The notes: generated by a model from the letters alone, not told the origin. DNA of 64,000 nucleotides from Candidatus Pacearchaeota archaeon (GCA_017609285.1 JAFCEE010000002.1:8152-72151); one strand, 5' to 3'; shown: positions 26,159-63,036, numbered from the stretch's first letter. Program-made: numbers and translations.

Positions 26159-26230
26159 ACTCAGAATTCTAAGGCGATTCTGTTGCCATCACCCTAATTT
26201 TGTCTGTGTTCTTAAGTATAAAAACTTAAC

Positions 26231-26324
26231 GCCAGCGCTAGGATTCGAACCTAGAAGCCCTTGTGGGCGCGGTTATCTCTTTCAAGATTCGAGACCGCTC
26301 CATTAACCATTCTGGCACGCTGGC
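26231..26324 (-). tRNA. tRNA-Ser (anticodon CGA) with a 13-nt intron after position 37
   Basis: Reverse complement, with the anticodon in brackets: GCCAGCG-TG-CCA-GAATGGTTAA-TGG-A-GCGGT-CT[CGA]A-(TCTTGAAAGAGAT)-A-ACCGC-GCCCACAAGGGC-TT-CTAGG-TTCGAAT-CCTAG-CGCTGGC. It has a 7-bp acceptor stem, a 3-bp D stem, a 5-bp anticodon stem, a long variable arm (type II) and a T-loop TTCGAAT. The intron is at 26275..26287. No CCA is encoded. Confidence 0.85.
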
Positions 26325-50460: not shown

Positions 50461-52758
50461 ATGATGTTCAAAAAAGGCACTGCCTTGTATGCTTATGAGG
50501 TTATGAGGGAAGTAGGAGAAGATGTTATGTATATTAATTATCTTGGAAGTCCTTTAATTCCAAGCTTATCCGATAATGCAGAAGTTATGGCTAGGACAAT
50601 AGATGCTTTAATAGAAAGTCCTAATGTATCGAGAATAGTTTTTGTTCAGCAAAGAAACTATAATTATGACTTTAGAGAAGTTTCTTTGTTGCTTGAAATA
50701 GCTCAATTATACACATATCTTGTAAAACAAGAGAAAATTTTAGGCCCTGAAAGATTAGTTATGCAGTGTCAGCAATGTTTGGGAAAAAGACATAATGATA
50801 TGACTTATTTTCTCATGTTGCTGAAACAAGACCCCATATCTGCTTATTTAGAGGCTAAAAGATTTCTGAGAGAAGAAAGAAATTTGTTAGAGAAAATTCC
50901 TGTTGAATGCAAGGTCTGCCAGATGAATTATATAAGGTTATTAGAGAAAATTTCAGCTTTAATGGAAAATCTAACTTTGATTAAAGAAGCAAGTCCTTTT
51001 TTAGATAGTCATAAAATAGGGGGCAGGGAGATATACCAACAGTTCTTTAGGCCTGACATTATTCCAAATTTTACTTTTACAAGATTAGTTGCCAGTCTTC
51101 CTGAGGACGCAGAGATTATTGATGAATATACCATAGGAAAAGGTTATGATAAATCTACTGTTACGATATTAAAGAAAAAAAATGAAGCAAAATATATCTA
51201 TCATTTAACTCCTCCTGAATATGTTTTAGATGAGGACTTTCATTTGTTATTGAATCTAGCAAGAAATGTTTTAATAGAGCATAGACCTAGACAAGAGGAA
51301 TTTACAGATATTGAAAGGACAAGACAGGTTTTTTTTAATGTATCAAGAGATTTATTACAGGAGTTGAGTGGGAATAAAAAAATTAGTCTGACTTATAATG
51401 AGTTGAATAAATTAGCAACAATATTGGTTAGGCATACAATTGGTTTTGGTTTATTAGAGGTTTTGTTGCAAGATTCTAAAATACAAGATATTGTTTTAAA
51501 TGCACCTATTGCCTTAAATCCTATTTTTGTAAGACATCAGAATTATGATGAATGTTTAACTAATATTTTACCAAGTCATGAAGATGCTGACTCCTGGGCT
51601 GCTAAATTGAGGATGTTATCAGGTAGGCCTTTAGATGAAGCAAACCCTATTTTAGATACTGACTTGTTGCTGGGAAAAATAAGGGCGAGAGTAGCTGTAA
51701 TACAACAACCTTTATCACCGAGGGGCTTGTCTTATGCTTTACGTAGACATAGAGAAGAGCCATGGACTCTTCCTTTATTTATCAAGAATAAGATGATAAA
51801 TAGCTTTACTGCTGGTTTGCTTTCCTTCTTAATTGACGGTTCTAGGACAATGTTGATAGCTGGAACTAGGAGTTCAGGTAAAACATCTATGTTAGGAGCT
51901 TTAATGTTAGAGATTATGTCTAAGTTAAGAATAATATGTTTAGAGGACACCCTTGAGCTTCCTGTTGAAAGTTTAAGAAAATTAGGTTATGATATTTTGA
52001 GAATGAAAGTCAGGTCAGCCTTATTACAAAAAACTACTGAGGTGGCGGCAGATGAAGGTATAAGAACTAGCTTAAGGTTTGGTGATTCTTGTTTGATAGT
52101 AGGCGAGGTTAGAAGTATAGAGGCAAAGGCTTTATATGAAGCTATGAGAGTAGGGGCTTTGGCTAATGTTGTTGCAGGTACAATACATGGAGCTTCCCCT
52201 TATGCCGTATTTGATAGAGTTGTTAATGATTTGGGAGTTCCTGTTACAAGTTTTAAGGCTACTGATGTTGTTTTAGTTTGTAATCCTGTTAAATCTCCGA
52301 GTGGATTACAATCATGGAAAAGAGTAGTCCAATTATCTGAAGTAAGGAAATACTGGACTAAAGATCCTCTTGAGGAGAAGGGTTTTGTCGATCTGCTTAA
52401 GTATAATGTTGATAAAGATGAGTTAGAAGCAAGTCAAGAATTAATTAATGGTGATAGTGAAGTTATAAAACAAGTAGCTTCTGGAGTGAAAGGATGGGCT
52501 GGGAATTGGGATGCTGTTTATGATAATATTCTCCTTAGAAGTAGAATAAAAGAGGAATTAGTTAAGGTGGCTGAAAAATTAAAACAACCAGAACTTTTGG
52601 AAGCTAAATTTAATTCTCTTGCCAACAACGCTTTTTATGAAATATCTGAGCAGGTAAGAGAAGAAATTGGTTTGCCTGTAAGCGAGAAAGTTTTTCCTTT
52701 ATGGCAGGAATGGTTGAAGAAGGAAGTAAAGAGAGTTAAAGAGAAAGGCGAGATTTAG
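50461..52758 (+). CDS. Type II/IV secretion-family ATPase (archaeal pilus assembly ATPase, FlaI/PilB-like) with long N-terminal extension
   Basis: 765 aa. Walker A is 'AGTRSSGKTS', the Walker B region is 'DSCLIVGEVRSIEA', and the His-box region is 'VAGTIHG'. About 330 aa precede the core. Confidence 0.85.
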   Translation: MMFKKGTALYAYEVMREVGEDVMYINYLGSPLIPSLSDNAEVMARTIDALIESPNVSRIVFVQQRNYNYDFREVSLLLEIAQLYTYLVKQEKILGPERLVMQCQQCLGKRHNDMTYFLMLLKQDPISAYLEAKRFLREERNLLEKIPVECKVCQMNYIRLLEKISALMENLTLIKEASPFLDSHKIGGREIYQQFFRPDIIPNFTFTRLVASLPEDAEIIDEYTIGKGYDKSTVTILKKKNEAKYIYHLTPPEYVLDEDFHLLLNLARNVLIEHRPRQEEFTDIERTRQVFFNVSRDLLQELSGNKKISLTYNELNKLATILVRHTIGFGLLEVLLQDSKIQDIVLNAPIALNPIFVRHQNYDECLTNILPSHEDADSWAAKLRMLSGRPLDEANPILDTDLLLGKIRARVAVIQQPLSPRGLSYALRRHREEPWTLPLFIKNKMINSFTAGLLSFLIDGSRTMLIAGTRSSGKTSMLGALMLEIMSKLRIICLEDTLELPVESLRKLGYDILRMKVRSALLQKTTEVAADEGIRTSLRFGDSCLIVGEVRSIEAKALYEAMRVGALANVVAGTIHGASPYAVFDRVVNDLGVPVTSFKATDVVLVCNPVKSPSGLQSWKRVVQLSEVRKYWTKDPLEEKGFVDLLKYNVDKDELEASQELINGDSEVIKQVASGVKGWAGNWDAVYDNILLRSRIKEELVKVAEKLKQPELLEAKFNSLANNAFYEISEQVREEIGLPVSEKVFPLWQEWLKKEVKRVKEKGEI

Positions 52759-52976: not shown

Positions 52977-55133
52977 ATGCCCAATATTGATGAAATTTTT
53001 AGGAAATACGGGAGAAAGTTAGAGCAAGAGATTAATACAGAAAGGTCAGACGTAGGTAAGTTTAGTAAAGAGTATCTACAATTTAAAAAAGATATGTTGC
53101 CAGAATTATCAAGATATGAAAGCTGGTGTCATACATTAGGGAATATTATCCGATTAAAAGTGGCAAGGAAAGACGAAGAAAAAATCCAAAAACAGTTAGA
53201 TATAGCTCATCTTGACGTAAGTCCAAGTCAAACAATAACCTTGGCTATAGTTTCTCTTTTACTGATTTTTTTTGTCGGTGTTTTAATTTCTCTTGCCTTA
53301 TTCATAATTTCTGGAGACTTTCCTTTTATATTTCTTTTTTTAATTTTAATAGCGAGTTTGTTTTTATTTTATTATTTTTATTCAATGCCAGCGAGATTAG
53401 CTAATAAGTGGCGTTTAAAAGCTTCTTCGCAAATGGTGCCTTGTATTTTGTATATTGTGGCTTATATGAAACACACCTCTAATTTGGAAAGAGCTATAGC
53501 TTTTGCTTCTCAACATCTTTCTCCTCCTTTGTCTTTAGATTTAAGAAAAGTTTTTTGGGATATAGAAACAGGAAAATTCACTAACATCAAAGATTCTTTA
53601 GATTCATATTTAGAGACATGGAGGGAAAGCAATATAGAGTTTATAGAAAGTTTTCATTTAATAGAAAGCAGTTTATATGAGCCTTCTGAAACAAGGAGAA
53701 TAGAGGTTTTGGAGAGAGCTTTACAAGTCATTCTTGATGGTGTATATGAAAAAATGTTAAAATATTCTAGAGAAGTTAGAAGTCCTTTAACTAACTTGTA
53801 TATGTTGGGCATAGTCTTACCTACTTTAGGTATTGCTTTACTACCTCTTGCTTCTACTTTGTTGGGAGGGGTTTTGCAGTGGTATCATGTTTTTATTTTG
53901 TTTAATTTAATTATACCTTTTTTTGTTTTTTATTTAACTAGTGAAGTGTTATTGAAGAGGCCTGGAGGTTATGGAGAAACAGAATTACTTGAGATGAATC
54001 CTAGGTATGCAAAATTTAAGAGCAAGAAGCCTTACCTTACTGCTTTTTTAATATGTGTGCCTTTTTTAATTATTGGCTTATTACCATTTATATTTCAGTA
54101 TACTGGCTTCCCTGAAATTATAGGTTTGGAAAAAGACTATAGCTTTTCACAATTTGGAATTAAATTTTTGCAGGATATGAAGCTTTTTGATTTTAAATCT
54201 GTTGAGGGAGGCGGAGTAGTCGGACCTTATGGATTATTTGCAGTTATATTAGGTTTATTTATTCCTTTTTCAATAGCTTTATTTTTTTCAATAGCTTATA
54301 ACAAAAAAACAAAAGAGTTGATTAAAACAAGAGAGGAGAGTAAAAAATTAGAGAGTGAATTTACTAATAGTTTGTTTCAGTTAGGAAATAGATTAGGAGA
54401 CGGTACTCCTGCTGAAATTGCTTTCGCTCATATTGCTGAATCAACAAGAGGACAGGTTACAGAAGGTTTTTTTAGAACTGTAAATACTAATATACAACAA
54501 CTTGGAATGTCTCTTGAAGAAGCTATTTTTAATAAAAGGAGAGGAGCCATTATTTATTATCCTTCTGCTTTGATTTCTACAAGTATGAAAATCTTGGTAG
54601 AATCTGTAAAAAAAGGTTTACAAGTTGCAGCAAGAGCATTAATGAGCATTTCTGAATATATTAAGAATATATACAAGATTAATGAGAGAATGCGTGATTT
54701 GTTAGCTGAAGTTGTTAGTGATATGAAGAGTAATATGACTTTTCTTGCTCCTCTGTTAGCTGGAATTGTAGTAGGTTTGGCTAGCATGATTACTATTATA
54801 CTAAATAAATTACAAGTTATGTTTGAGATGCAAGGAGAATTTGAAGTTACTGGTTTAGGAAATGTTTCTGGTATACTTGAAATTTTTGATTTAACTGCTA
54901 TGATATCACCATATTTTTTACAAGTTGCGATTGGAATTTATATTATTGAGATTATTTTTATTCTTTCTAATACATTAGTAACAGTAGATGCAGGAGAGGA
55001 CAAGTTAAGGGTTGTATATGAAACAGGAAAAAATTTGAAGAGAGGAATAATACTTTATTTAATTGTAAGTTTTATAGCTATACTTTCTCTTGCTTTGTTA
55101 GCGAGTATAGCTTTAGGAGGATTAAGTGTTTAG
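52977..55133 (+). CDS. Polytopic platform protein, FlaJ/TadC/PilC (T2SSF)-like
   Basis: 718 aa. Clusters of TM helices are separated by two helical cytoplasmic domains. Its position is directly after the ATPase. Confidence 0.65.
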   Translation: MPNIDEIFRKYGRKLEQEINTERSDVGKFSKEYLQFKKDMLPELSRYESWCHTLGNIIRLKVARKDEEKIQKQLDIAHLDVSPSQTITLAIVSLLLIFFVGVLISLALFIISGDFPFIFLFLILIASLFLFYYFYSMPARLANKWRLKASSQMVPCILYIVAYMKHTSNLERAIAFASQHLSPPLSLDLRKVFWDIETGKFTNIKDSLDSYLETWRESNIEFIESFHLIESSLYEPSETRRIEVLERALQVILDGVYEKMLKYSREVRSPLTNLYMLGIVLPTLGIALLPLASTLLGGVLQWYHVFILFNLIIPFFVFYLTSEVLLKRPGGYGETELLEMNPRYAKFKSKKPYLTAFLICVPFLIIGLLPFIFQYTGFPEIIGLEKDYSFSQFGIKFLQDMKLFDFKSVEGGGVVGPYGLFAVILGLFIPFSIALFFSIAYNKKTKELIKTREESKKLESEFTNSLFQLGNRLGDGTPAEIAFAHIAESTRGQVTEGFFRTVNTNIQQLGMSLEEAIFNKRRGAIIYYPSALISTSMKILVESVKKGLQVAARALMSISEYIKNIYKINERMRDLLAEVVSDMKSNMTFLAPLLAGIVVGLASMITIILNKLQVMFEMQGEFEVTGLGNVSGILEIFDLTAMISPYFLQVAIGIYIIEIIFILSNTLVTVDAGEDKLRVVYETGKNLKRGIILYLIVSFIAILSLALLASIALGGLSV

Positions 55134-55167
55134 TTAAATTTATATTTATAGAAGGATTGTGAAAAAT

Positions 55168-55344
55168 ATGAAAAGAGGAAAAAGAGAGAAGGGTAAGAGT
55201 GGCGCTATAGAATTAGAAATGTTAGCTTGGTGGATTATAGCTTTGATTATTCTTGTTTTGATTATTATTGCTTATTTTATTTTGTCAGAAAAAGGAGCTG
55301 GCATAATTGAACATATGAAGAATTTGTTTAGGTTTAGAAGATGA
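55168..55344 (+). CDS. Class III signal-peptide (pilin-like) mini-protein
   Basis: 'MKRGKREKGKSG/AIELEMLAWWIIALIILVLIII'. The ATG is at 55168; the track start is a GTG at 55159. Confidence 0.55.
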   Translation: MKRGKREKGKSGAIELEMLAWWIIALIILVLIIIAYFILSEKGAGIIEHMKNLFRFRR

Positions 55345-57158
55345 ATAAAAAAGGGGCTGAACTTGCGATTAGGAAACTGGTTTTGATAGTAATTATTCTT
55401 CTGGTTTTGTTTATAGCTTTACTTGCTTTTGTTCCTATGTTTAGGGAAAAAGTTTTAGGATGGATTAGGGGTTTGCCAGAATATAAATACGAATATGATG
55501 AGGAAATTGATGTTAGTGAGTTAAGTGATGAGGAAAGGGCTGGTTTGTGTTCTGGAGATTTGTTTGTAGGAAAAATAAAAGGAGAAACTGAGAGGGCAGG
55601 AGGAACAAAAAGCTTTATTGATATTTATTACGACGAGTTTGGAATAAAAACCTTGCTTTATTGGAGTGGGAATGACAGAAATGCTGAAATAAAAGTATTT
55701 ATTCCAGGTTGGTTTTGGGGTAAGAAAGATGTTGTTGTGGCAGAAGTGAAAAATAGAAAAATTAGTGTAAAAAAAGAATTTTTAGATAAAAGTGAGGCAT
55801 ATATTGCTTTGAATAATAAAATAATAAAAGAAACAGATAGGGAGTGGGGGTTGCCAGGTACAGAAGTGTTTGAACTTTTAGATAATGCTTATTATAGATC
55901 AGGAAATCTTATTTGTAGAACTGAACTTTCCCAATTTCAAATATGCGAAAAAGCGTGGCAGGAATTAAAAAATAAGAAATTTACTCTTATTTTTAAAGGA
56001 AAATGTGGGGTAGATAAAAATAATATTATTAACTTTAGAGAATGGGGTACCTGTTGTTTAGAAGTTAGCAATCTTTTCTTGAAAACAGGAGAAAAAGAAC
56101 AGCAATGGTATTGGACACCAGATAATACAAATTTTTGCGAAGAATTTTCTAATTATGATTTTGACTTGATATTTGATACAAAAACACAATTTTGGAAAGT
56201 TAAAGTTTGGATTCCTGAAAAAGGAGAAGTTTTGTATTTTGGAGGAGGAGATTGTTCTCAACCTTTAGGTTATTATAATTGTGAACTCGGATTTGAAGAG
56301 GGATTTGAAAAATATGGTGGGGTTTATGTTAGAGATGATGTAACTTGTAAGGAAGTAAAAGAAAAAGTGGTAAAGAAAGGAGAGTTTGATAAAATTAAAA
56401 ATTTAATTAAAAATAATTATTTTATTCTAAAAAGAGAAAATAAACCTTTGATTGAACCTTTATGTATAGATAGTGATGCGAAAACTAATCCGATAAAATT
56501 GAGATTTAAAGGTGGTTTTCTTGGACTTAGTAGTGGAGATGTTTATTTTGTTTGGCAAGCTGAAAAAAGAAAGGTACTTGCTTCTGAAAAAATTAACTTT
56601 ATTCTTGAAGAAGAGGACCCATTAGTGTATGATGCTGCAGAATTTGAAGCTGAATTAAATTCAAAGGGTAAAGATTCTGAGATATTTAATCATATAAATG
56701 ATATATGGGAAAATAATATAATTTTGTATATCCTAAAAGCAAAAGATTTAATAGAATTTATTGATAGGGTGACTTTAACATTCAATAACGCTGAAGATGT
56801 ATTTTATATTTTTCAGGGAGAACAGCCCTGGGATGACATTAGAAGAAACAGGCCTTATTATTTAGAATCTTGGCATAATCCTGGTTATTGTCTTGATAAA
56901 TACAGGGGAAAACATGATTGTAAGTTTTATAATTCAGACAAAAAAGAAGAAAGGATTTGCGAAATTAAGGATGATGGTAGAATATGTTTGGTTGGTAAGG
57001 AGGAAAAATGTGGAGAAACTTGTTTTTGTGAAGAAGATTATGAGGACGGTGATGAGTTAATTATATCAGACCTAAATATAGTTAAAGAAAGATGGAAAAT
57101 TGAAAAAGAATTTTGGGAAGGAAAAGCATATTTGTATTTAAATAAAGAAGGGAATTAG
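55341..57158 (+). CDS. Large Cys-rich class III signal-peptide protein (605 aa)
   Basis: 'MNKKG/AELAIRKLVLIVIILLVLFIALLAF'. I count about 18 Cys, with a dense C-terminal cluster 'RICEIKDDGRICLVGKEEKCGETCFCEE'. Confidence 0.7.
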   Translation: MNKKGAELAIRKLVLIVIILLVLFIALLAFVPMFREKVLGWIRGLPEYKYEYDEEIDVSELSDEERAGLCSGDLFVGKIKGETERAGGTKSFIDIYYDEFGIKTLLYWSGNDRNAEIKVFIPGWFWGKKDVVVAEVKNRKISVKKEFLDKSEAYIALNNKIIKETDREWGLPGTEVFELLDNAYYRSGNLICRTELSQFQICEKAWQELKNKKFTLIFKGKCGVDKNNIINFREWGTCCLEVSNLFLKTGEKEQQWYWTPDNTNFCEEFSNYDFDLIFDTKTQFWKVKVWIPEKGEVLYFGGGDCSQPLGYYNCELGFEEGFEKYGGVYVRDDVTCKEVKEKVVKKGEFDKIKNLIKNNYFILKRENKPLIEPLCIDSDAKTNPIKLRFKGGFLGLSSGDVYFVWQAEKRKVLASEKINFILEEEDPLVYDAAEFEAELNSKGKDSEIFNHINDIWENNIILYILKAKDLIEFIDRVTLTFNNAEDVFYIFQGEQPWDDIRRNRPYYLESWHNPGYCLDKYRGKHDCKFYNSDKKEERICEIKDDGRICLVGKEEKCGETCFCEEDYEDGDELIISDLNIVKERWKIEKEFWEGKAYLYLNKEGN

Positions 57159-57162
57159 AAAG

Positions 57163-58023
57163 ATGAGAAAAAAAGCAGATATATTAATGCCGGAATTTTT
57201 GAAATTGATGATAGCAGTAATTGTAATTGGTTTGCTTTTATATTTAGCTTATCAACTTTACGGAATTTTTATAGCTAAATCTGATTTAGAAAAAGCAAGA
57301 AGTACTTTAAATCAGATTGTTGGGAAAATAGAAAGTTTAGAAGAAGGTGAGAAAATAGATTATATAATTAATAGTCCTGAAGGTTGGAATCTTTTATTAT
57401 ATGAAGATGAATCTTTATGTGATGGTGAGAAATGTTTATGTATTTGTGAAAAGAAAACTAAGAATAATTGTAAGAATTATGGTGTTTGTAAGGCTTTTCC
57501 TTATGAATATGAGCCATTTATAGAGGGATATTTTAATCCTAGGGAAATTGACAATGCACAGGTGCAATTTGGTATTTACCATTCTAAAAAAATTTTCCTT
57601 TCTAAAAATGATGGGATTATTTATTTTTTAAAAGATAAATTACATGAAAAAGAGAGAGATGTTTTAAATAATTTGTTAGTTTATGAATTTAAAAAGAAGA
57701 AGATTGAGAGTTATCTTAATGATTTTATTAATTCTGGAGGAAATAAAAAGTATTCTCAATTATATATGGCTATTAAAGATTATTTTGATAATCATAATTT
57801 GAAAGGAATTTTTAAAGTTGAAACAGAGGAAAAATATAATGAGGGGAGACCAATAGTTAAATTGGGAGAGATTTATTTTAAATTTGAAAAACCTGAAAGA
57901 TTCAGAGTTCAAGCAGGATTATGGAATATATATAAAACAACTAAAAAAATATCTGATGATAAAGGAAATATTTATGTAATTTCATTTATAGCTGATTTAT
58001 CTAATTATGAAAATGAAAACTAA
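57163..58023 (+). CDS. Pilin-like N-terminal anchor protein with Cys cluster (286 aa)
   Basis: 'MRKKADILMPEFLKLMIAVIVIGLLLYLAY' and the cluster 'CDGEKCLCICEKKTKNNCKNYGVC'. Confidence 0.6.
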   Translation: MRKKADILMPEFLKLMIAVIVIGLLLYLAYQLYGIFIAKSDLEKARSTLNQIVGKIESLEEGEKIDYIINSPEGWNLLLYEDESLCDGEKCLCICEKKTKNNCKNYGVCKAFPYEYEPFIEGYFNPREIDNAQVQFGIYHSKKIFLSKNDGIIYFLKDKLHEKERDVLNNLLVYEFKKKKIESYLNDFINSGGNKKYSQLYMAIKDYFDNHNLKGIFKVETEEKYNEGRPIVKLGEIYFKFEKPERFRVQAGLWNIYKTTKKISDDKGNIYVISFIADLSNYENEN

Positions 58024-58126
58024 AAAAGCCCAGATGTCAGAATTATTCAGGTATTTGTTGTGGATAGTTGTATTTTTAATTTTAGGGACAGGCTTATATT
58101 TGATGTTAAAAAAACTGATAGGATAA
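58007..58126 (+). CDS. Unannotated 39-aa pilin-like mini-protein
   Basis: Not in the track. It encodes 'MKMKTKKAQMSELFRYLLWIVVFLILGTGLYLMLKKLIG'. It overlaps the 3' end of the previous gene in another frame. Confidence 0.4.
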   Translation: MKMKTKKAQMSELFRYLLWIVVFLILGTGLYLMLKKLIG

Positions 58127-58156
58127 AAATTTAAATTAAAGAGTATTGGTAAGGAA

Positions 58157-59293
58157 ATGTTAAGAGGAATAAAAAGAGGGAAAAAAGCAGCATTAAGTGC
58201 GAAAATGATAGTCACAATTATCTTACTTATAATGGGTTTTATTATTTTACTTTTTTTTATGTTGAGATTTGTTTGGACTGAAAGAGTTGATAAAGAGGTT
58301 TGTCATGAATCTGTGATTTTAAGAGCTACTTTACCTTCTATTGTCAAAGAATATATTCCTTTAAAATGCAAGACAGCTAAATACTGCATAACTACTAGTG
58401 GATTTTTAGGAATTGGTGGTGGAAAATGTAATGGTAAAGGAGAGGCTTTTCAAGGCGAGAAAGGTATAACTAAAGTTAAAGTTAAAAGTAAAGAAGATAT
58501 AGAAAGGTTTCTTGCTAGAGAAATTATTGATTGTTGGAGTATGATGGGAGAAGGAAAAGTTTCTTTGTTTACTCAGCATATGGCTAAAAACTTTGGTGTT
58601 GGAGGAATTAGTTCTTCTTGTGTCATATGCAGTAGAATTGCTTTTGATAATGAAAGTTTAGTTAAGGCAGGGATTAATTTTAGTGAGATTGATGTTTTAA
58701 ATTATATGGCAACTCATAAAGCTCCTAATAAAGATGTTTCTTATCTTGAGTATTTGGTGGGGGAAAAAGGAAAAATAAGTATAAAAACTGATGAAGATAT
58801 CAAGGAAGTTGTGAAGTCTTTTTCTGAAATTAAAGAAAGTGAGACCTTTAAAAAAGAATTTAAGGAAGAAGATTTGAGTGGAGAGATAAATTTGGAAGAG
58901 GTTTCAGAAGAAGAAATAAATAAAGCTGATGAAACACAGAAGGAGTTTGCTATTATGTTTATGCAGGTTATAGCTCCTAAACATTCAGATGTTCTGAAAA
59001 ATACTGCTTATGTTGCTTTTGGCGGAGCAGGAGCTAGCGCTATTTTATCCCCTATAACTACAATTAAGGTTATTGGAAGCGTTGTTTTTTGGAAAATAGC
59101 TCTGCCTGTGGCTGCTCTTTTCACAGCTGGCCAACACGTTAATGTTATGATACAGAGAGATATTGCAGCAGGTTATTGTGGAGATGTTTCTGTTGGTGGA
59201 GAGGCAAGAGATGGTTGTTCAGTAGTCAGGACAATAAATTATAATATAGATGATTTAACAAAATATTGTTCTATTATTGAGAGCATACCTTAA
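58157..59293 (+). CDS. Class III signal-peptide-like protein (378 aa), Cys-rich
   Basis: 'MLRGIKRGKKA/ALSAKMIVTIILLIMGFIILLFF'. It has about 12 Cys, an acidic insert, and a second hydrophobic region near the C-terminus. Confidence 0.6.
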   Translation: MLRGIKRGKKAALSAKMIVTIILLIMGFIILLFFMLRFVWTERVDKEVCHESVILRATLPSIVKEYIPLKCKTAKYCITTSGFLGIGGGKCNGKGEAFQGEKGITKVKVKSKEDIERFLAREIIDCWSMMGEGKVSLFTQHMAKNFGVGGISSSCVICSRIAFDNESLVKAGINFSEIDVLNYMATHKAPNKDVSYLEYLVGEKGKISIKTDEDIKEVVKSFSEIKESETFKKEFKEEDLSGEINLEEVSEEEINKADETQKEFAIMFMQVIAPKHSDVLKNTAYVAFGGAGASAILSPITTIKVIGSVVFWKIALPVAALFTAGQHVNVMIQRDIAAGYCGDVSVGGEARDGCSVVRTINYNIDDLTKYCSIIESIP

Positions 59294-59294
59294 A

Positions 59295-59675
59295 ATGAGA
59301 AAAACTGGAATGTTAATACTTGGAGAAATAATATTTTTTTCTTTAAATGCTGTTTTTTTTATAATTATGTTAATTTTTGTTGTTAGTAATGCTAATGGCA
59401 AGCCTATTTATGAACAAGCATATGCTAAACAAATCGCTTTAATGATAGATGAAGCAAAGCCAGGTATGACTTTTTCTTTAAATATGCGGGATGTTGTTGA
59501 GAAATATGATAGGGAGTTGTCAGAGATTATAAAAATAGACAATAATGAAAAGAAAGTTGTTGTTAAATTAGGTTCAAGAGGTGGTTATAGTTATAGATTT
59601 TTTACTCAAGCTAAGATAGAATCTAAAGTTCAGGAAAAATATAATATTATAATCAGTGTAAAGGAAAATGAATAA
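59295..59675 (+). CDS. Pilin-like protein (126 aa)
   Basis: 'MRKTG/MLILGEIIFFSLNAVFFIIMLIFVV'. The ATG at 59295 lies 1 nt after the previous stop. Confidence 0.55.
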   Translation: MRKTGMLILGEIIFFSLNAVFFIIMLIFVVSNANGKPIYEQAYAKQIALMIDEAKPGMTFSLNMRDVVEKYDRELSEIIKIDNNEKKVVVKLGSRGGYSYRFFTQAKIESKVQEKYNIIISVKENE

Positions 59676-60207
59676 TTTATTAAGGAATAAAAAGGGAGGA
59701 GAAAAGTATCTTAGTATTTGGTGGTTTTTTGTTTTAGTTGTTATTGCTGGTGGAATTGTTATGGTTATATCTGCTTATAATGTTTCTGATATTTCTACTA
59801 AAAAATTAGAATCATATATCTTAGTTACGAGATTTGTTGATTGTGTTGTTGATTCCGGCTATTTAAATGAAAAATTTTTGGCTGGGAATTTTGATATCTT
59901 TAAGAGTTGTTATTTAAGTAGGGAAATTATAGAGGATGGAAAACATTATTTTGCCTATGAAGTTTACAAACTTAATGATTGTAAATATGAAAAAGGAATG
60001 TTGAAATGTAAAGAGCCATTAATTTCAAACTCTTTTGGCGTAACCGATTTTAAAAATCAATGTAAGATTAAAGAAAAAATGAAAGAAGCTAAACACTATC
60101 CTGAATGTTCTGAAAAGAAGATTTATGTTTTAAGTAAAGAAAAAGAAAAATTAATGATGTATGTTGTTGCTGGTTCAAATCAAAAAATTAAGAAAGAAGT
60201 ACTTTAA
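59668..60207 (+). CDS. Pilin-like protein (179 aa), Cys-containing
   Basis: 'MNNLLRNKKGGEKYLSIWWFFVLVVIAGGIVMVI' with 7 Cys. Confidence 0.55.
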   Translation: MNNLLRNKKGGEKYLSIWWFFVLVVIAGGIVMVISAYNVSDISTKKLESYILVTRFVDCVVDSGYLNEKFLAGNFDIFKSCYLSREIIEDGKHYFAYEVYKLNDCKYEKGMLKCKEPLISNSFGVTDFKNQCKIKEKMKEAKHYPECSEKKIYVLSKEKEKLMMYVVAGSNQKIKKEVL

Positions 60208-60208
60208 A

Positions 60209-60826
60209 ATGGTAAGAAAGTTAAGAAGTAAAAAGGGACAAGTACCTTCTGCACTAACTTGGATTGTTGCTTTTCTTATAATATTTTTTATTATGTTCTT
60301 GTTTGTGTCTGCTTCACTTATTATTATAGGAAAGAGGAAAATTCCGATAGTTGAAGGGGGGAAAAGTAAGATTGGGATCGAAAAGGCGAGAAGAAATTTA
60401 ATAGAGAGTGAGATACTTTTTGCTTTATTAGAAACAAAAATTTATGGCATTAAATTAAGAGAAAGGATTTTAGAATGGAATAAGATACAACCTATTTCTA
60501 GTGAAGAGAGAGAGAATACAAGAAAAAAAATTGAAAATGAAGTTAGCGACATTCTTTTTTTATATGAAAACTGCAAATATATTTTTGATGTAGATGCTGT
60601 TCCTGAAAATTTGAGAAATATGCCTGTAGATCCAAGAGGAGCAGGGCCTTATTATAGAGCAATTTCTTATTATAAATTAAGAAAAACAAACATTCAGCCT
60701 GTTACAAGCGACCCTCGCGGAATGCAGTATTTTACAAGCTATTTTAATGCTCTTTTAAATCAAGCATCCAAAATAAATATAGGAAAGGAAAATCCAATAT
60801 GGGTTAGATTTTATTTAGAGTGTTAA
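60209..60826 (+). CDS. Pilin-like protein (205 aa)
   Basis: 'MVRKLRSKKGQVPSALTWIVAFLIIFFIMFLFV'. The ATG at 60209 lies 1 nt after the previous stop. Confidence 0.55.
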   Translation: MVRKLRSKKGQVPSALTWIVAFLIIFFIMFLFVSASLIIIGKRKIPIVEGGKSKIGIEKARRNLIESEILFALLETKIYGIKLRERILEWNKIQPISSEERENTRKKIENEVSDILFLYENCKYIFDVDAVPENLRNMPVDPRGAGPYYRAISYYKLRKTNIQPVTSDPRGMQYFTSYFNALLNQASKINIGKENPIWVRFYLEC

Positions 60827-60827
60827 A

Positions 60828-61163
60828 ATGAAACGTAAAAAGGGAGCTACTATCATTTCAATTTTGTTACTTGTGTTTATAGCTTTGGCTTTATCTGCCT
60901 CAACTTTGTTTGTTCTTCTAACTAATGAGAAAGTAGAGAAGATAATTTCTGATGCAAGATTTTTGGAGAAAGTTTATTTTAAAGAAGAGCAGATTAAATT
61001 TTTTTTGAATCAAAATGTAAGTGTTGAAGAGGCCGTCAGATTAATTGAAGGGGCCAAATTAGTAGGAGAGGAAATTGAAATTACAGAAGAATTAGAAACT
61101 AAAGAAGGTAAAATTAATGTAGTGTATAGATTTAAACCAAACAAAAATAGGGAAAAGATTTAA
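60828..61163 (+). CDS. Class III signal-peptide pilin-like protein (111 aa)
   Basis: 'MKRKKG/ATIISILLLVFIALALSAS'. Confidence 0.65.
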   Translation: MKRKKGATIISILLLVFIALALSASTLFVLLTNEKVEKIISDARFLEKVYFKEEQIKFFLNQNVSVEEAVRLIEGAKLVGEEIEITEELETKEGKINVVYRFKPNKNREKI

Positions 61164-61196
61164 AAATATACCCGACTTAAGTTAAGCAAGAAAAAG

Positions 61197-61640
61197 ATGG
61201 TGAAAAATAAAAAAGGAGCTGAACTTACTATAGGAACTTTAGTTGTTATAGTTTTAGCTATAATAGTTTTAGTTGTGTTAGCTTTGGGATTTGGAACTGG
61301 CTGGACTAATTTGTGGAGCAAGATTACAGGTTATTTTTCTCCAGTTAATGTTGATGCTGTTAAGCAGGCTTGCGTTTATGCTTGTACTACTAATGCTAAA
61401 TATGATTGGTGTTATAGGGTTAGGGAGATAAAGTATGAACAAGGTCAGCCAAAAATAAAAATTACTTGTGATAGTTGGAGTAATGATAAACTTGCTTTAG
61501 GAAAATCAGAAAATTTGCCTTCTCAACTCCTACATATGCTTGAGAAATGTGATAATATTGAATGTCCTAGCGCAGAAGGATCAGAAACTTCACCCACAAG
61601 TAGAGATTCAGAAACAGCCCTTCCTGAGGGGGGAGGATAA
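61197..61640 (+). CDS. Small Cys-patterned pilin (147 aa), candidate major pilin
   Basis: 'MVKNKKG/AELTIGTLVVIVLAIIVLVVLALG' and the Cys pattern C-x3-C-x8-C...ITC...C-x4-C. The tail is S/T/E-rich. Confidence 0.7.
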   Translation: MVKNKKGAELTIGTLVVIVLAIIVLVVLALGFGTGWTNLWSKITGYFSPVNVDAVKQACVYACTTNAKYDWCYRVREIKYEQGQPKIKITCDSWSNDKLALGKSENLPSQLLHMLEKCDNIECPSAEGSETSPTSRDSETALPEGGG

Positions 61641-61681
61641 TTTAACACCAAATTTAAAAACATCTTTTTCTTATTTTTAGC

Positions 61682-61981
61682 ATGAATAAAAAAGGTTTTG
61701 AGTTAACTATTAACACTCTTGTTATAATAGTTCTTGCCTTACTTGTTTTATTAGCTTTAAGTTTAGCTTTTACTGGAGGATTTAAGAAATTCTGGCGAGA
61801 AATTAAGGGTTATTCTGGGAGTGAAATTGATTCTTTGAGTAAGATATGCCAGAGTCAGTGTGTTCAGGGAAATAAGTATAGTTTCTGTTGCGAAAAAAAG
61901 ATATTGGGTAAGGAAGAGATAACATGTTTAGATAAAAGGTTAAATGTTGATTGTGAGATAAGTTGCAGAGGAGTTTGTTGA
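61682..61981 (+). CDS. Small Cys-patterned pilin (99 aa), paralogue of 61197..61640
   Basis: 'MNKKG/FELTINTLVIIVLALLVLLALS'. 'ICQSQCVQGNKYSFCC...ITC' parallels 'ACVYACTTNAKYDWC...ITC'. Confidence 0.7.
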   Translation: MNKKGFELTINTLVIIVLALLVLLALSLAFTGGFKKFWREIKGYSGSEIDSLSKICQSQCVQGNKYSFCCEKKILGKEEITCLDKRLNVDCEISCRGVC

Positions 61982-62160: not shown

Positions 62161-63036
62161 ATGATTAGCTTTTTGATTTTCCTTGCTTTAATCTGGCTTG
62201 TAATAGCTTCAATGCAAGATATAAAAAAAAGAGAAGTTCCAAATTGGTTGTCTTTTTCCCTTATTTTGTTTGCTTTAGCTTTTCGTTTGATTTACTCTGT
62301 TATTAATTCTGATGCTTGGTTTTTTTTGTTTGGCTTATTCGGTTTTATGATTTTTTTCTTGTTAGCTTATATGTTTTATTATGCAAGAGTTTTTGCTGGC
62401 GGCGACGCTAAACTTTTAATGGGTATTGGGGCTGTTTTACCTTTAAGTTTTAGTATGTATTATAATTTGATTTTATTCGGAACCTTTATTTTTCTTTTTT
62501 TGTTAACAGGAGCAGTCTATGGTTTGGTTTATTCTTTTGTGTTAGTTGCCTTAAACAGAAAAAAATTTTCTAAAGAGTTTTTTAAGCAGTTTAAATTAAG
62601 AAAAAACCTAGTTTTTATCTTTTTAATTCTAGCTTTGACGAGTTTGATTTTTGTTATTTATTCTAGAGAATTTTTATTATTACTTTTGCCTTTCCCAATT
62701 TTTATTTTCCCTATGCTTTTTATTTATGCTAAGGCAGTAGAGGAGAGTTGTATGGTTAAGGAAGTTAATAGTAAGGATGTGGTGATTGGAGATTGGTTGT
62801 ATGAAGAGATTGTAGTAAAATTTAGTGGAAAAAGAAAAAAAATTAAGCCTTGTTGGGAAGGTTTGAGTGAAGAAGAGGTTGAGTTATTGAAAAAGGCGAG
62901 GAAAAAAGTAAAAATAAAACAAGGCATACCTTTTGTTCCTTGTTTTTTAGTTTCCTTTTTATTATTCTTATGGTTATGGTATTCTAACTGGAGCTTTTTC
63001 CAGTGGTTTTGGCTTTTTAGCTTTAATTTTCCTTGA
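62161..63036 (+). CDS. Prepilin/preflagellin peptidase (A24 family, PibD/FlaK-like)
   Basis: 291 aa, polytopic. The first Asp motif is '[15 protein letters not shown]' and the second is '[13 protein letters not shown]'. Confidence 0.85.

What the first reader, a model, noticed from the sequence alone, without database searches (positions are those of the whole stretch)
55341..59293. Very large Cys-rich proteins with pilin-type N-termini: candidate tip adhesins
Seen in sequence: three consecutive ORFs of 605, 286 and 378 aa start with pilin-like anchors and are rich in cysteines. The 605-aa protein has about 18 Cys, including 'RICEIKDDGRICLVGKEEKCGETCFCEE'. The 286-aa protein has 'CDGEKCLCICEKKTKNNCKNYGVC'. 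The 378-aa protein has about 12 Cys plus an acidic insert 'EEDLSGEINLEEVSEEEINKADE'. I recognise no known domains in them. Inference: these are minor-pilin or tip-complex components that present novel extracellular domains, and they are the most likely specificity determinants of the filament.
Basis: partly seen in the sequence, partly recalled or inferred. Interest (0 to 1): 0.6.

Follow-up and report, generated by a model that had tools for sequence, protein, structure and literature searches.

The report
Swappable-headed pilin-like proteins in a DPANN archaeon
Three cysteine-rich proteins in the pilus operon of a tiny uncultivated archaeon all carry prepilin-type starts: two are carriers whose outer modules are exchanged between close relatives (likely surface or host-contact parts), and the third is a conserved core part of the machine.

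Summary
The 378-aa protein has 10 Cys, not about 12. A conserved 39-aa gene lies between the second and third ORF.

The window comes from a 0.59-Mb Pacearchaeota-type DPANN genome. The three genes sit in a tight operon: secretion ATPase, platform protein, 11 proteins with KK[G/A] + hydrophobic-helix starts, then an A24 prepilin peptidase. The same gene order recurs in 60 related loci.

- **p605 (605 aa)** is the most divergent gene of the operon. Only the N-terminal 170-200 aa are shared across the slot. Downstream modules fall into at least 6 unrelated groups and are shuffled as units. One close relative is 93% identical at the DNA level up to codon 79 and has no detectable DNA similarity from there to the start of p286.
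- **p286 (286 aa)** has a conserved core of about 110 aa with six clustered Cys, then a variable extension.
- **p378 (378 aa)** is different. It is conserved over its full length, all 10 Cys are invariant, and it is found in 142 of 151 genomes of the order. It is a core component, not a specificity determinant.

No protein family, solved structure or fold matches any mature domain. In relatives, the same slots carry murein hydrolases (SLT, Amidase_2).

Best reading: archaeal modular minor pilin-like carriers with exchangeable cargo. A tip position and an adhesin role remain untested.

The parts
55341..57158 (+). p605: modular pilin-like carrier with cargo (605 aa, 18 Cys)
   Evidence: ORF. Cys count. 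Only 2 homologues by word search and 78 representatives by HMMER, most matching only residues 1-200. Most divergent operon gene.
55341..55490 (+). p605 residues 1-50: MNKKG|AELAIRKL leader, hydrophobic helix and conserved W-I-R-G-L-P-E-Y motif (Pro46 invariant)
   Evidence: A2 alignment. Motif count 37/42. AF2 helix 4-43 with pLDDT 70-95. 96% identical to the L001 orthologue.
55503..55925 (+). p605 module A (about residues 55-195): the carrier head shared by most slot proteins
   Evidence: AF2 pLDDT 75-98 with beta strands 74-143. Minimal slot proteins of 167-210 aa consist of the helix plus this module, and most have 2 Cys. Foldseek found no PDB match.
55932..56360 (+). p605 module B (about residues 198-340): orphan Cys-rich module with 8 conserved Cys
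   Evidence: Shared with P0124, P0125, P0126 and P0127 in different combinations. No Pfam or PDB match. Absent from 30 related genomes.
56373..57140 (+). p605 module C (about residues 345-600): orphan module ending in the Cys cluster C517...C563
   Evidence: Shared only with P0124, P0126 and P0129. AF2 confidence is low except residues 520-600.
57163..57537 (+). p286 conserved core (residues 1-125): RKKA|DILMPE leader, long helix, and a six-Cys cluster at residues 86-109
   Evidence: A3 alignment: C95 and C103 invariant; C93 and C109 at least 90% conserved. Conservation profile. Weak match of the helix to bacterial pilins, E 0.07-0.13.
57538..58023 (+). p286 variable C-terminal extension (residues 126-286)
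   Evidence: Not conserved in 51 orthologues. Absent from 30 related genomes. Family length ranges from 149 to 382 aa.
58007..58126 (+). p39: conserved 39-aa pilin-like mini-protein between p286 and p378
   Evidence: 65% identical orthologue in L002. Present in 35 loci with bit-score ratio 0.38.
58157..59293 (+). p378: conserved disulfide-rich core component with a prepilin-like start
   Evidence: At least 289 homologues. 10 invariant Cys. KK[GA] motif in 51/54. Found in 142/151 genomes of the order. AF2 pLDDT 72.7 and pTM 0.67. No fold match.
58793..58930 (+). p378 acidic insert (residues 213-258): variable and predicted disordered
   Evidence: pLDDT below 50. The variable stretch containing it is 49-80 aa long across homologues, with median acidic fraction 0.25.
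58982..59179 (+). p378 helical hairpin (residues 276-341): moderately hydrophobic, possibly membrane-associated
   Evidence: AF2 helices 276-297, 299-305 and 308-341. Median maximum Kyte-Doolittle 19-residue hydropathy (KD19) 1.72, with 27/40 homologues at or above 1.6.
50461..52758 (+). Context: secretion ATPase (765 aa) with an N-terminal extension
   Evidence: Pfam T2SSE, NCBIfam FlaI/TadA. PDB 2OAP at E 1.8e-31.
52977..55133 (+). Context: single-gene platform protein (718 aa, polytopic)
   Evidence: Hydropathy. 82% identical in L002. Present in 147/151 genomes of the order.
55159..55344 (+). Context: p61, a tiny conserved prepilin-like protein whose stop overlaps the p605 start
   Evidence: Bit-score ratio 0.49.
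59277..61981 (+). Context: six further prepilin-like genes (p132, p179, p221, p111, p147, p99)
62161..63036 (+). Context: A24 prepilin peptidase (291 aa). The sequence shows D20 and an AGGD motif.
   Evidence: Pfam Peptidase_A24 at E 5.9e-14; NCBIfam FlaK at E 1.5e-12. Sequence.

Best explanation
All three proteins are prepilin-type (class III signal peptide) products of a conserved type IV filament operon of Pacearchaeota-type DPANN archaea.

**Inferred pathway.** The operon's A24 peptidase removes the short basic leader after KK[G/A]. The hydrophobic N-terminal helix is then handled by the GspE/FlaI-like ATPase and the single platform protein.

**p605 and p286** are modular minor pilin-like carriers. 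Each has a conserved N-terminal assembly part: helix plus LPxY motif plus a head of about 140 aa in p605, and helix plus a six-Cys knot in p286. Each then carries a lineage-specific extracellular cargo module, disulfide-stabilised in this genome. Cargo is replaced by recombination at a junction just after the conserved start. These cargo modules are the exposed, fast-changing working ends. They could bind ligands or host surfaces, or be enzymes as in relatives.

**p378** is not variable cargo. It is a conserved core subunit with five likely disulfides, of unknown fold, probably part of the initiation or anchoring complex.

**Status of each step.**
- Shown: operon membership, the motif, modularity, the divergence ranking, and the orphan status of the domains.
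- Inferred: cleavage, incorporation into a filament, tip position, and ligand or host function.
For: **Operon and synteny**
- Tight single-strand operon with ATPase, platform and A24 peptidase.
- Same gene order in 60 loci from Pace-, Woese- and Nanoarchaeota MAGs.
- The platform is present in 147/151 genomes of the order.

**Prepilin-like starts**
- A [KR][GA] motif precedes the hydrophobic helix in 37/42, 47/51 and 51/54 orthologues.
- The three families align with each other only over this N-terminal stretch (hhalign E 1e-5 to 3e-6).

**Divergence ranking** (median bit-score ratio over all locus pairs)
- ATPase 0.67, platform 0.63, p378 0.34, p286 0.16, p605 slot 0.075.

**Cassette boundary**
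- L001 is 93% identical at the DNA level over 55014-55577, then shows no similarity until 57235.
- Protein identity falls from 95% (residues 1-79) to 25-30% after that.

**Modularity**
- Slot proteins range from 167 to 682 aa, and 11/42 have no cargo.
- C-terminal parts fall into at least 6 unrelated groups.
- Homologues exist as helix+B+C, helix+B, helix+A+B and helix+A+B+C.
- The cargo parts are absent from 30 related genomes.

**Structure prediction**
- p605 residues 1-205 are confident, with a long helix followed by a beta sheet.

**Cargo in relatives**
- SLT in the p605 slot (L058) and the p286 slot (L036); Amidase_2 in the p221 slot (L010, L015).

**p378 as a core part**
- At least 289 homologues, 10 invariant Cys, present in 142/151 genomes.
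Against: - No curated pilin or class III signal HMM matches any of the three.
- Foldseek finds no known pilin head for the confident p605 N-domain.
- Some homologues lack module A altogether (P0124, P0127), so it is not an obligatory pilin head.
- p378 has a second, moderately hydrophobic helical hairpin. This is unusual for a subunit that must be extracted from the membrane.
- p605 modules B and C are predicted with low confidence, so their function is open.
- p605 and p286 cargo types do not co-vary, so there is no evidence that they act as a pair.
Confidence: 0.6

Rival explanations
1. The proteins are membrane-resident accessory or assembly parts of the machine, such as alignment, stator or envelope-passage proteins. 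Their pilin-like starts only target them to the apparatus. They are not polymerised into the filament.
For: - p378 is conserved like a machine part.
- p378 has an extra hydrophobic hairpin.
- No pilin-head fold was recognised.
- A 2026 survey notes pilin-like proteins and membrane proteins of unknown role in archaeal T4F loci (PMC13705601).
Against: - p605 and p286 are the least conserved genes of the operon and carry swapped extracellular modules. That fits exposed working ends better than internal machine parts.
- Murein hydrolase cargo in relatives must reach outside the cell.
Confidence: 0.25
2. The variable modules are enzymes or effectors that act on a bacterial partner's envelope, not adhesins. 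Modules B and C of p605 and the p286 extension would be unrecognised hydrolase or binding domains for cell wall polymers.
For: - The same slots carry SLT and Amidase_2 in relatives.
- The genome itself encodes a membrane-anchored SLT-domain protein with sequence repeats resembling peptidoglycan-binding motifs, beside a second filament locus.
- Castelle et al. 2021 proposed bacterial hosts for Pace- and Woesearchaeota on the basis of SLT proteins (PMC8204110).
Against: - The window's modules show no family, structure or motif match.
- Only 4 of 184 slot proteins scanned have a recognisable hydrolase domain.
Confidence: 0.2
3. The operon builds a bindosome-like or pseudopilus-like surface display. 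It would make no long pilus. It would serve as a short platform that holds prepilin-type surface proteins at the cell surface.
For: - Eleven prepilin-like genes sit in one operon, several with bulky domains.
- The genome has many more large prepilin-like proteins.
- The Sulfolobus bindosome is a precedent (PMC13705601).
Against: - No substrate-binding-protein domains or ABC transporter genes were recognised among the operon proteins scanned.
- Small Cys-scaffold pilins (p147, p99) that could form a shaft are present.
Confidence: 0.15
4. The N-termini are ordinary uncleaved signal anchors, and the proteins are unrelated to the filament.
For: No curated class III signal or pilin HMM matches.
Against: - The KK[G/A] motif sits at a fixed position in 11 consecutive genes and in about 90% of orthologues.
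- Operon position is fixed next to a dedicated A24 peptidase in 60 loci.
Confidence: 0.05

Closest known systems
Bacterial modular type IV pilins (Streptococcus sanguinis PilB with a vWA module, PilC with a lectin module; CofB, GspK, ComZ). Raynaud et al. 2021, PMC8179133.
   Same: - A small N-terminal pilin-type carrier has a bulky functional module grafted on.
- Architectures vary widely between lineages.
- The proteins are encoded in the pilus operon as single-copy minor subunits.
   Different: - These are archaeal, with a class III signal that curated HMMs do not recognise.
- The carrier head has no detectable similarity to known pilin folds.
- The cargo in this genome consists of orphan Cys-rich modules.
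- Cargo turnover is visible between near-identical strains.
- Incorporation into a filament is unproven.
Archaeal type IV filament loci with adhesin-like proteins ('system 2' as described in PMC13705601, 2026; classification after Makarova et al. 2016)
   Same: - ATPase with an N-terminal extension.
- A single platform gene.
- Many pilins and pilin-like proteins.
- Large adhesin-like proteins in the locus.
   Different: - That survey reports that DPANN rarely show an ordered locus. Here the locus is ordered and nearly universal in the order.
- The arCOG markers that define the subsystems could not be tested.
Large extracellular SLT-domain proteins of Pacearchaeota and Woesearchaeota (fam00969; Castelle et al. 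2021, PMC8204110)
   Same: - Same lineages.
- Extracellular and thought to target bacterial cell walls.
- SLT domains occur in the p605 and p286 slots of relatives.
   Different: - The window's three proteins have no SLT domain.
- The slot proteins are small carrier fusions inside a filament operon, not giant stand-alone proteins.
PilY1/PilC tip adhesins with the four core minor pilins of bacterial T4aP
   Same: The idea of a variable adhesive part presented by a conserved minor-pilin complex.
   Different: - No PilY1 beta-propeller domain was found.
- Here the variable part is fused to the pilin-like carrier itself. L013 and L014 are exceptions, where a separate 274-aa gene follows a 171-aa carrier.

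Membership tests
Archaeal class III signal peptide (prepilin-type) proteins | Short basic leader ending in [KR]-[GA], directly followed by a hydrophobic helix of about 20 aa | tested here: met
   Seen in p605 (KKG|AELAIRKLVLIV), p286 (KKA|DILMPEFLKLMIAV) and p378 (KKA|ALSAKMIVTII). Conserved in 37/42, 47/51 and 51/54 orthologues.
Archaeal class III signal peptide (prepilin-type) proteins | A cognate A24 (FlaK/PibD/EppA-type) peptidase is available | tested here: met
   A 291-aa Peptidase_A24 (E 5.9e-14) closes the operon. D20 and an AGGD motif are visible in its sequence. It holds the same position in at least 37 loci.
Archaeal class III signal peptide (prepilin-type) proteins | Match to curated pilin, archaellin or class III signal HMMs | tested here: not met
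   No Pfam or NCBIfam match at E up to 0.1 for any of the three.
Archaeal class III signal peptide (prepilin-type) proteins | Cleavage by the peptidase and assembly into a filament | not testable with these tools
   This needs proteomics, a cleavage assay or imaging.
Type IV pilin fold | A long N-terminal alpha helix packed against a beta-sheet head that resembles solved pilins | tested here: inconclusive
   The AF2 model of p605 residues 1-205 shows helix 4-43 followed by beta strands at high confidence. Foldseek against the PDB gives nothing better than E 0.33. The p286 helix gives only weak matches to bacterial pilins (E 0.07).
Modular pilins (Raynaud et al. 2021) | An N-terminal pilin-type module plus at least one extra module that is not part of pilus biology | tested here: met
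   Slot proteins range from the carrier alone (167-210 aa) to 682 aa. Modules A, B and C occur in different combinations. C-terminal parts fall into at least 6 unrelated groups.
Modular pilins (Raynaud et al. 2021) | The extra module has an identifiable function | tested here: not met
   The window's modules have no family or structure match. The feature is met only in relatives: SLT in L058 and L036, Amidase_2 in L010 and L015.
Modular pilins (Raynaud et al. 2021) | Presentation on the filament, probably at the tip | not testable with these tools
   No multimer folding or imaging was available.
PilY1/PilC adhesins | C-terminal PilY1-type beta-propeller | tested here: not met
   No Pfam match and no Foldseek match.
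Epd-type pilus ('system 1' of archaeal T4F) | The platform is encoded by two genes | tested here: not met
   The window has a single 718-aa platform gene. A separate locus on contig C1 does have two platform-size genes.
Bindosome-type class III substrate-binding proteins | A solute-binding-protein domain behind the class III signal | tested here: not met
   No such domain was found in the three proteins.

The most novel reading that the evidence does not exclude
The type IV filament operon of Pacearchaeota-type archaea is a cargo-display device that sets partner range. At least three slots (p605, p286, p221) take exchangeable working heads. These heads are swapped by recombination at a conserved junction just behind the assembly helix, much as phages swap receptor-binding proteins.

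In this genome the heads would be unrecognised, disulfide-locked binding or lytic domains aimed at a bacterial partner. The conserved p378, with its hydrophobic hairpin, would be the part that anchors or inserts at the contact site.
Probability: 0.2. Interest if true: 0.75.

Novelty: new variant of a known kind. Interest (0 to 1): 0.55.

Why it matters
Almost nothing is known about how Pacearchaeota and Woesearchaeota, a large share of archaeal diversity, recognise and hold their partners. None of them is cultivated.

- **Concrete candidates.** This locus is present in nearly every genome of the order. It contains a sharply delimited hypervariable cargo slot, and that cargo is the obvious candidate for partner specificity.
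- **Possible bacterial partners.** Relatives place murein hydrolases in the same slots, which points to bacterial rather than archaeal partners.
- **Invisible to current surveys.** The latest T4F survey reports that DPANN rarely have ordered loci. These pilin-like families are probably missed by the profiles in current use.
- **New targets.** p378 and modules A-C of p605 are families without any structural relative. They are good targets for structure determination and binding assays.

Tried and rejected
**Searches that found nothing**
- Pfam and NCBIfam scans of the three proteins.
- PDB sequence searches with single sequences and with family profiles A1, A2, A3 and A4.
- Foldseek of the p378 model against PDB and BFVD and of the p605 model against PDB. 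Best E values were 3.5, 1.4 and 0.33.
- A second word-based homologue search restricted to p605 residues 198-605 found only the query itself.

**Ideas tested and rejected**
- Silent cassettes or paralogues of the three genes elsewhere in the genome: none found by tblastn.
- Co-variation of p605 and p286 cargo types, as a sign that they work as a pair: 2 overlapping pairs, P=0.056, not significant.
- Homology between the three families beyond the N-terminus: only 32-40 N-terminal columns align.
- p378 as a variable adhesin: rejected because it is conserved.
- The operon as an Epd or 'system 1' pilus: rejected because it has a single platform gene.

**Could not be done**
- Mapping public reads to measure population diversity or expression.
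- The AF2 model of p605 residues 213-517 is unreliable (pLDDT below 50), so nothing was built on it.

Full report
**Where the window comes from.** G+C content is 25-33%. A tRNA of 95 nt suggests an intron. The genome is 588.5 kb in 8 contigs. The nearest relatives are MAGs labelled Pacearchaeota, Woesearchaeota or Nanoarchaeota. This is a Pacearchaeota-type DPANN archaeon.

**Checking the observation.** The three ORFs are at the stated coordinates on the + strand, at 605, 286 and 378 aa.
- Cys counts are 18, 6 and 10.
- Background Cys is 1.08% in the window's long ORFs and 1.27% genome-wide.
- By count alone the enrichment is clear for p605 (P=1.4e-4), moderate for p378 (P=0.009) and not significant for p286 (P=0.09).
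- Conservation is the stronger argument. All 10 Cys of p378 are invariant in 54 homologues. Four of the six clustered Cys of p286 are invariant or nearly so in 51 orthologues. The Cys of p605 modules B and C are kept in the few proteins that share those modules.
- The ORFs are not strictly consecutive. A 39-aa pilin-like gene (58007-58126) lies between p286 and p378 and is conserved in relatives.

**Context.** The three genes are part of one tight + strand operon, in this order:
- a 765-aa secretion ATPase (Pfam T2SSE; NCBIfam FlaI/TadA; closest solved chain 2OAP at E 1.8e-31);
- a 57-aa ORF;
- a single polytopic 718-aa platform protein;
- eleven proteins with a basic leader ending in K-K-G/A followed by a hydrophobic helix: p61, p605, p286, p39, p378, p132, p179, p221, p111, p147 and p99;
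- a 291-aa A24 prepilin peptidase (Peptidase_A24 at E 5.9e-14; FlaK model at E 1.5e-12). Its sequence shows D20 and an AGGD motif.

Sixty loci fetched around p378 homologues show the same gene order. The platform protein is found in 147 of 151 genomes sampled from the order, and in 68 of 68 high-quality genomes.

**Are the N-termini prepilin-like?**
- A [KR][GA] pair lies within 12 residues before the hydrophobic helix in 37/42 p605-slot proteins, 47/51 p286-family proteins and 51/54 p378-family proteins.
- Profile-profile comparison of the three families aligns only this N-terminal stretch, with the KKG motifs in register (E 1e-5 to 3e-6 over 32-40 columns).
- Curated pilin and class III signal HMMs do not match.
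- The motif, its fixed position and the dedicated peptidase make an ordinary signal anchor unlikely. Cleavage itself was not shown.

**p605.**
- Word-based search of 5.8 billion proteins found only two homologues.
- Exhaustive HMMER search of 1.84 billion representatives found 78, nearly all matching only residues 1-200.
- In the 42 positional orthologues the length runs from 167 to 682 aa. Eleven are carriers only, at 210 aa or less, and most of these have two Cys.
- The only invariant residue is Pro46, in a W-[IL]-[KR]-N-L-P-x-Y motif just after the helix.
- C-terminal parts fall into at least six mutually unrelated groups.
- Aligning the few proteins that share the window's downstream sequence shows three units: module A (about residues 55-195), module B (about 198-340, eight conserved Cys) and module C (about 345-600, ending in the cluster C517...C563).
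- These units occur as helix+B+C (P0124), helix+B (P0127), helix+A+B (P0125) and helix+A+B+C (P0126, L021, and the window). Modules are therefore shuffled as units.
- A close relative, L001, is 93% identical at the DNA level over window 55014-55577. That stretch covers the end of the platform gene, p61 and the first 79 codons of p605. No detectable similarity follows until 57235, inside p286.
- Protein identity with the L001 orthologue drops from 95% (residues 1-79) to 25-30% after that.
- Modules B and C are absent from 30 related genomes of different genera. The genome holds no paralogues or silent copies.
- AF2 on the 42-sequence alignment gives a confident N-terminal 205 residues (pLDDT 75-98), with helix 4-43, then strands 74-143 and helices. 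Residues 213-517 are unreliable.
- Foldseek against the PDB finds nothing better than E 0.33.

**p286.**
- The family has a conserved core of about 110 aa: leader, a long helix with a conserved EQAK stretch, and the knot C-x4-C-x-C-x-C-x7-C-x5-C.
- Family length ranges from 149 to 382 aa.
- The window's residues 126-286 are not conserved in any orthologue. They are absent from 30 related genomes.
- The helix gives only weak matches to bacterial pilin helices (E 0.07-0.13).

**p378.** This protein behaves differently.
- It has at least 289 homologues at 40-55% identity over the full length, none with a Pfam domain or an informative name.
- Ten Cys are invariant.
- It is found in 142/151 genomes and 84/85 genera of the order. 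In more distant genomes often only the first 200 or so positions match.
- AF2 gives pLDDT 72.7 and pTM 0.67. The model has a mixed alpha/beta ectodomain, a disordered acidic insert (residues 213-258; the variable stretch around it is 49-80 aa long in homologues), and a helical hairpin (residues 276-341). A final strand returns to the sheet.
- The hairpin is moderately hydrophobic. Median maximum Kyte-Doolittle 19-residue hydropathy (KD19) is 1.72, at or above 1.6 in 27/40 homologues, with few charges. A membrane association is possible but not settled.
- There is no fold match in PDB or BFVD.

**Divergence ranking.** Median bit-score ratios over all pairs of loci, with the three study proteins in bold:

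| Gene | Ratio |
|---|---|
| ATPase | 0.67 |
| platform | 0.63 |
| p61 | 0.49 |
| peptidase | 0.42 |
| p39 | 0.38 |
| **p378** | **0.34** |
| p132 | 0.33 |
| p179 | 0.30 |
| **p286** | **0.16** |
| p111 | 0.16 |
| p221 | 0.12 |
| **p605 slot** | **0.075** |

It also applies to p221 and p111.

**What the cargo is in relatives.** I ran Pfam scans on all slot proteins.
- L058: SLT lytic transglycosylase in the p605 slot (253 aa, E 1.4e-12, with the ES...GLMQ motif).
- L036: SLT in the p286 slot (382 aa, E 5.7e-9).
- L010 and L015: Amidase_2 in the p221 slot (E 3.4e-20 and 1.9e-18).
- Sources.
- That is only 4 of 184 proteins. The rest, including the window's, are orphans.
- The window's own genome encodes a membrane-anchored SLT-domain protein with sequence repeats resembling peptidoglycan-binding motifs. 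It lies beside a second filament locus on another contig.
- Castelle et al. 2021 had proposed bacterial hosts for these lineages on the basis of large SLT proteins (PMC8204110).
- Cargo types of p605 and p286 assort independently.

**Interpretation.** p605 and p286 fit the concept of modular pilins described for bacteria: a small pilin-type carrier with a grafted functional module, probably tip-exposed (Raynaud et al. 2021, PMC8179133).
- This is an archaeal version with its own carrier families, orphan disulfide-rich cargo and visible cassette replacement between strains.
- p378 is a conserved core part of the same machine.
- Not shown: cleavage, polymerisation, tip position, and whether the window's modules bind or cut anything.
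- Main rivals: membrane-resident accessory proteins (most plausible for p378), enzymatic rather than adhesive cargo, and a bindosome-like display platform.

**Relation to the literature and to earlier notes.**
- A 2026 survey of archaeal type IV filaments states that DPANN rarely show an ordered locus and that their pilins appear scattered (PMC13705601). The ordered, nearly universal operon seen here suggests these pilin-like families escape the profiles used there.
- Earlier AI notes from this scan report pilin-like carriers with murein hydrolase heads in other Pacearchaeota genomes.
- I found the SLT fusions independently before reading those notes. They agree but are not independent proof.

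**Verdict.**
- It is right about fast divergence for p605 and p286, wrong for p378, and unproven for tip location and adhesion.
- Overall this is a new archaeal variant of a known design principle, and it supplies concrete candidates for partner recognition in an uncultivated lineage.

Noticed in passing
window 58007-58126 (+): A 39-aa ORF (MKMKTKKA|QMSELFRYLLWIVVF...) overlaps the end of p286. It is conserved in about 35 related loci (65% identity in L002; bit-score ratio 0.38). It is a real mini pilin-like gene.
   Followed up: partly
window 55159-55344 (+): p61 is a 61-aa prepilin-like protein (KSG|AIELEMLAWW...) with a basic tail. It is the best conserved of the pilin-like genes (bit-score ratio 0.49; 92% identity in L001). 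Its stop overlaps the p605 start (ATGA). It might be a helix-only subunit.
   Followed up: partly
genome contig C1:56000-75400 (outside the window): A second type IV filament locus lies here. It has a 582-aa ATPase (31% identical to the window's), two platform-size genes, a KaiC-like gene, and several prepilin-like proteins, including ones of 848 aa (13 Cys) and 877 aa (18 Cys). A 369-aa membrane-anchored SLT-domain protein with sequence repeats resembling peptidoglycan-binding motifs sits at C1:74231-75340.
   Followed up: partly
genome contigs C4 and C5 (outside the window): More large Cys-rich proteins with KK[GA]-type starts occur here: C4:39550-42345 (931 aa, 23 Cys), C5:9970-11817 (615 aa, 10 Cys) and several of 160-320 aa. 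Large Cys-rich prepilin-like proteins are a genome-wide theme.
   Followed up: no
L058:8206-8964, L036:2569-3714, L010:12049-13269, L015:9214-10386: Relatives carry murein hydrolase domains on pilin-like carriers in three different operon slots. SLT is in the p605 slot (L058) and the p286 slot (L036). Amidase_2 is in the p221 slot (L010, L015).
   Followed up: yes
L013:6086-6910 and L014:5870-6694: In two relatives the p605 slot is split. A 171-aa carrier is followed by a separate 274-aa protein without a signal or helix. This could be a non-covalent cargo arrangement or a frameshift.
   Followed up: no
L029 (two ORFs of 377 and 404 aa): The p378 family is duplicated in tandem in one relative. 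Several genomes of the order also show two matches.
   Followed up: no
window 50461-51350 (+): The first 295 or so residues of the 765-aa ATPase have no family match. The recognised ATPase core starts near residue 296.
   Followed up: no
window 60161-61163 (+): The p221 and p111 slots are as divergent as p286 (bit-score ratios 0.12 and 0.16). Their lengths vary widely (160-407 aa and 43-431 aa). The operon therefore has at least four variable slots, not two.
   Followed up: partly
window 26230-26324 (-): The only Rfam hit in the window is a tRNA spanning 95 nt, which suggests an intron.
   Followed up: no
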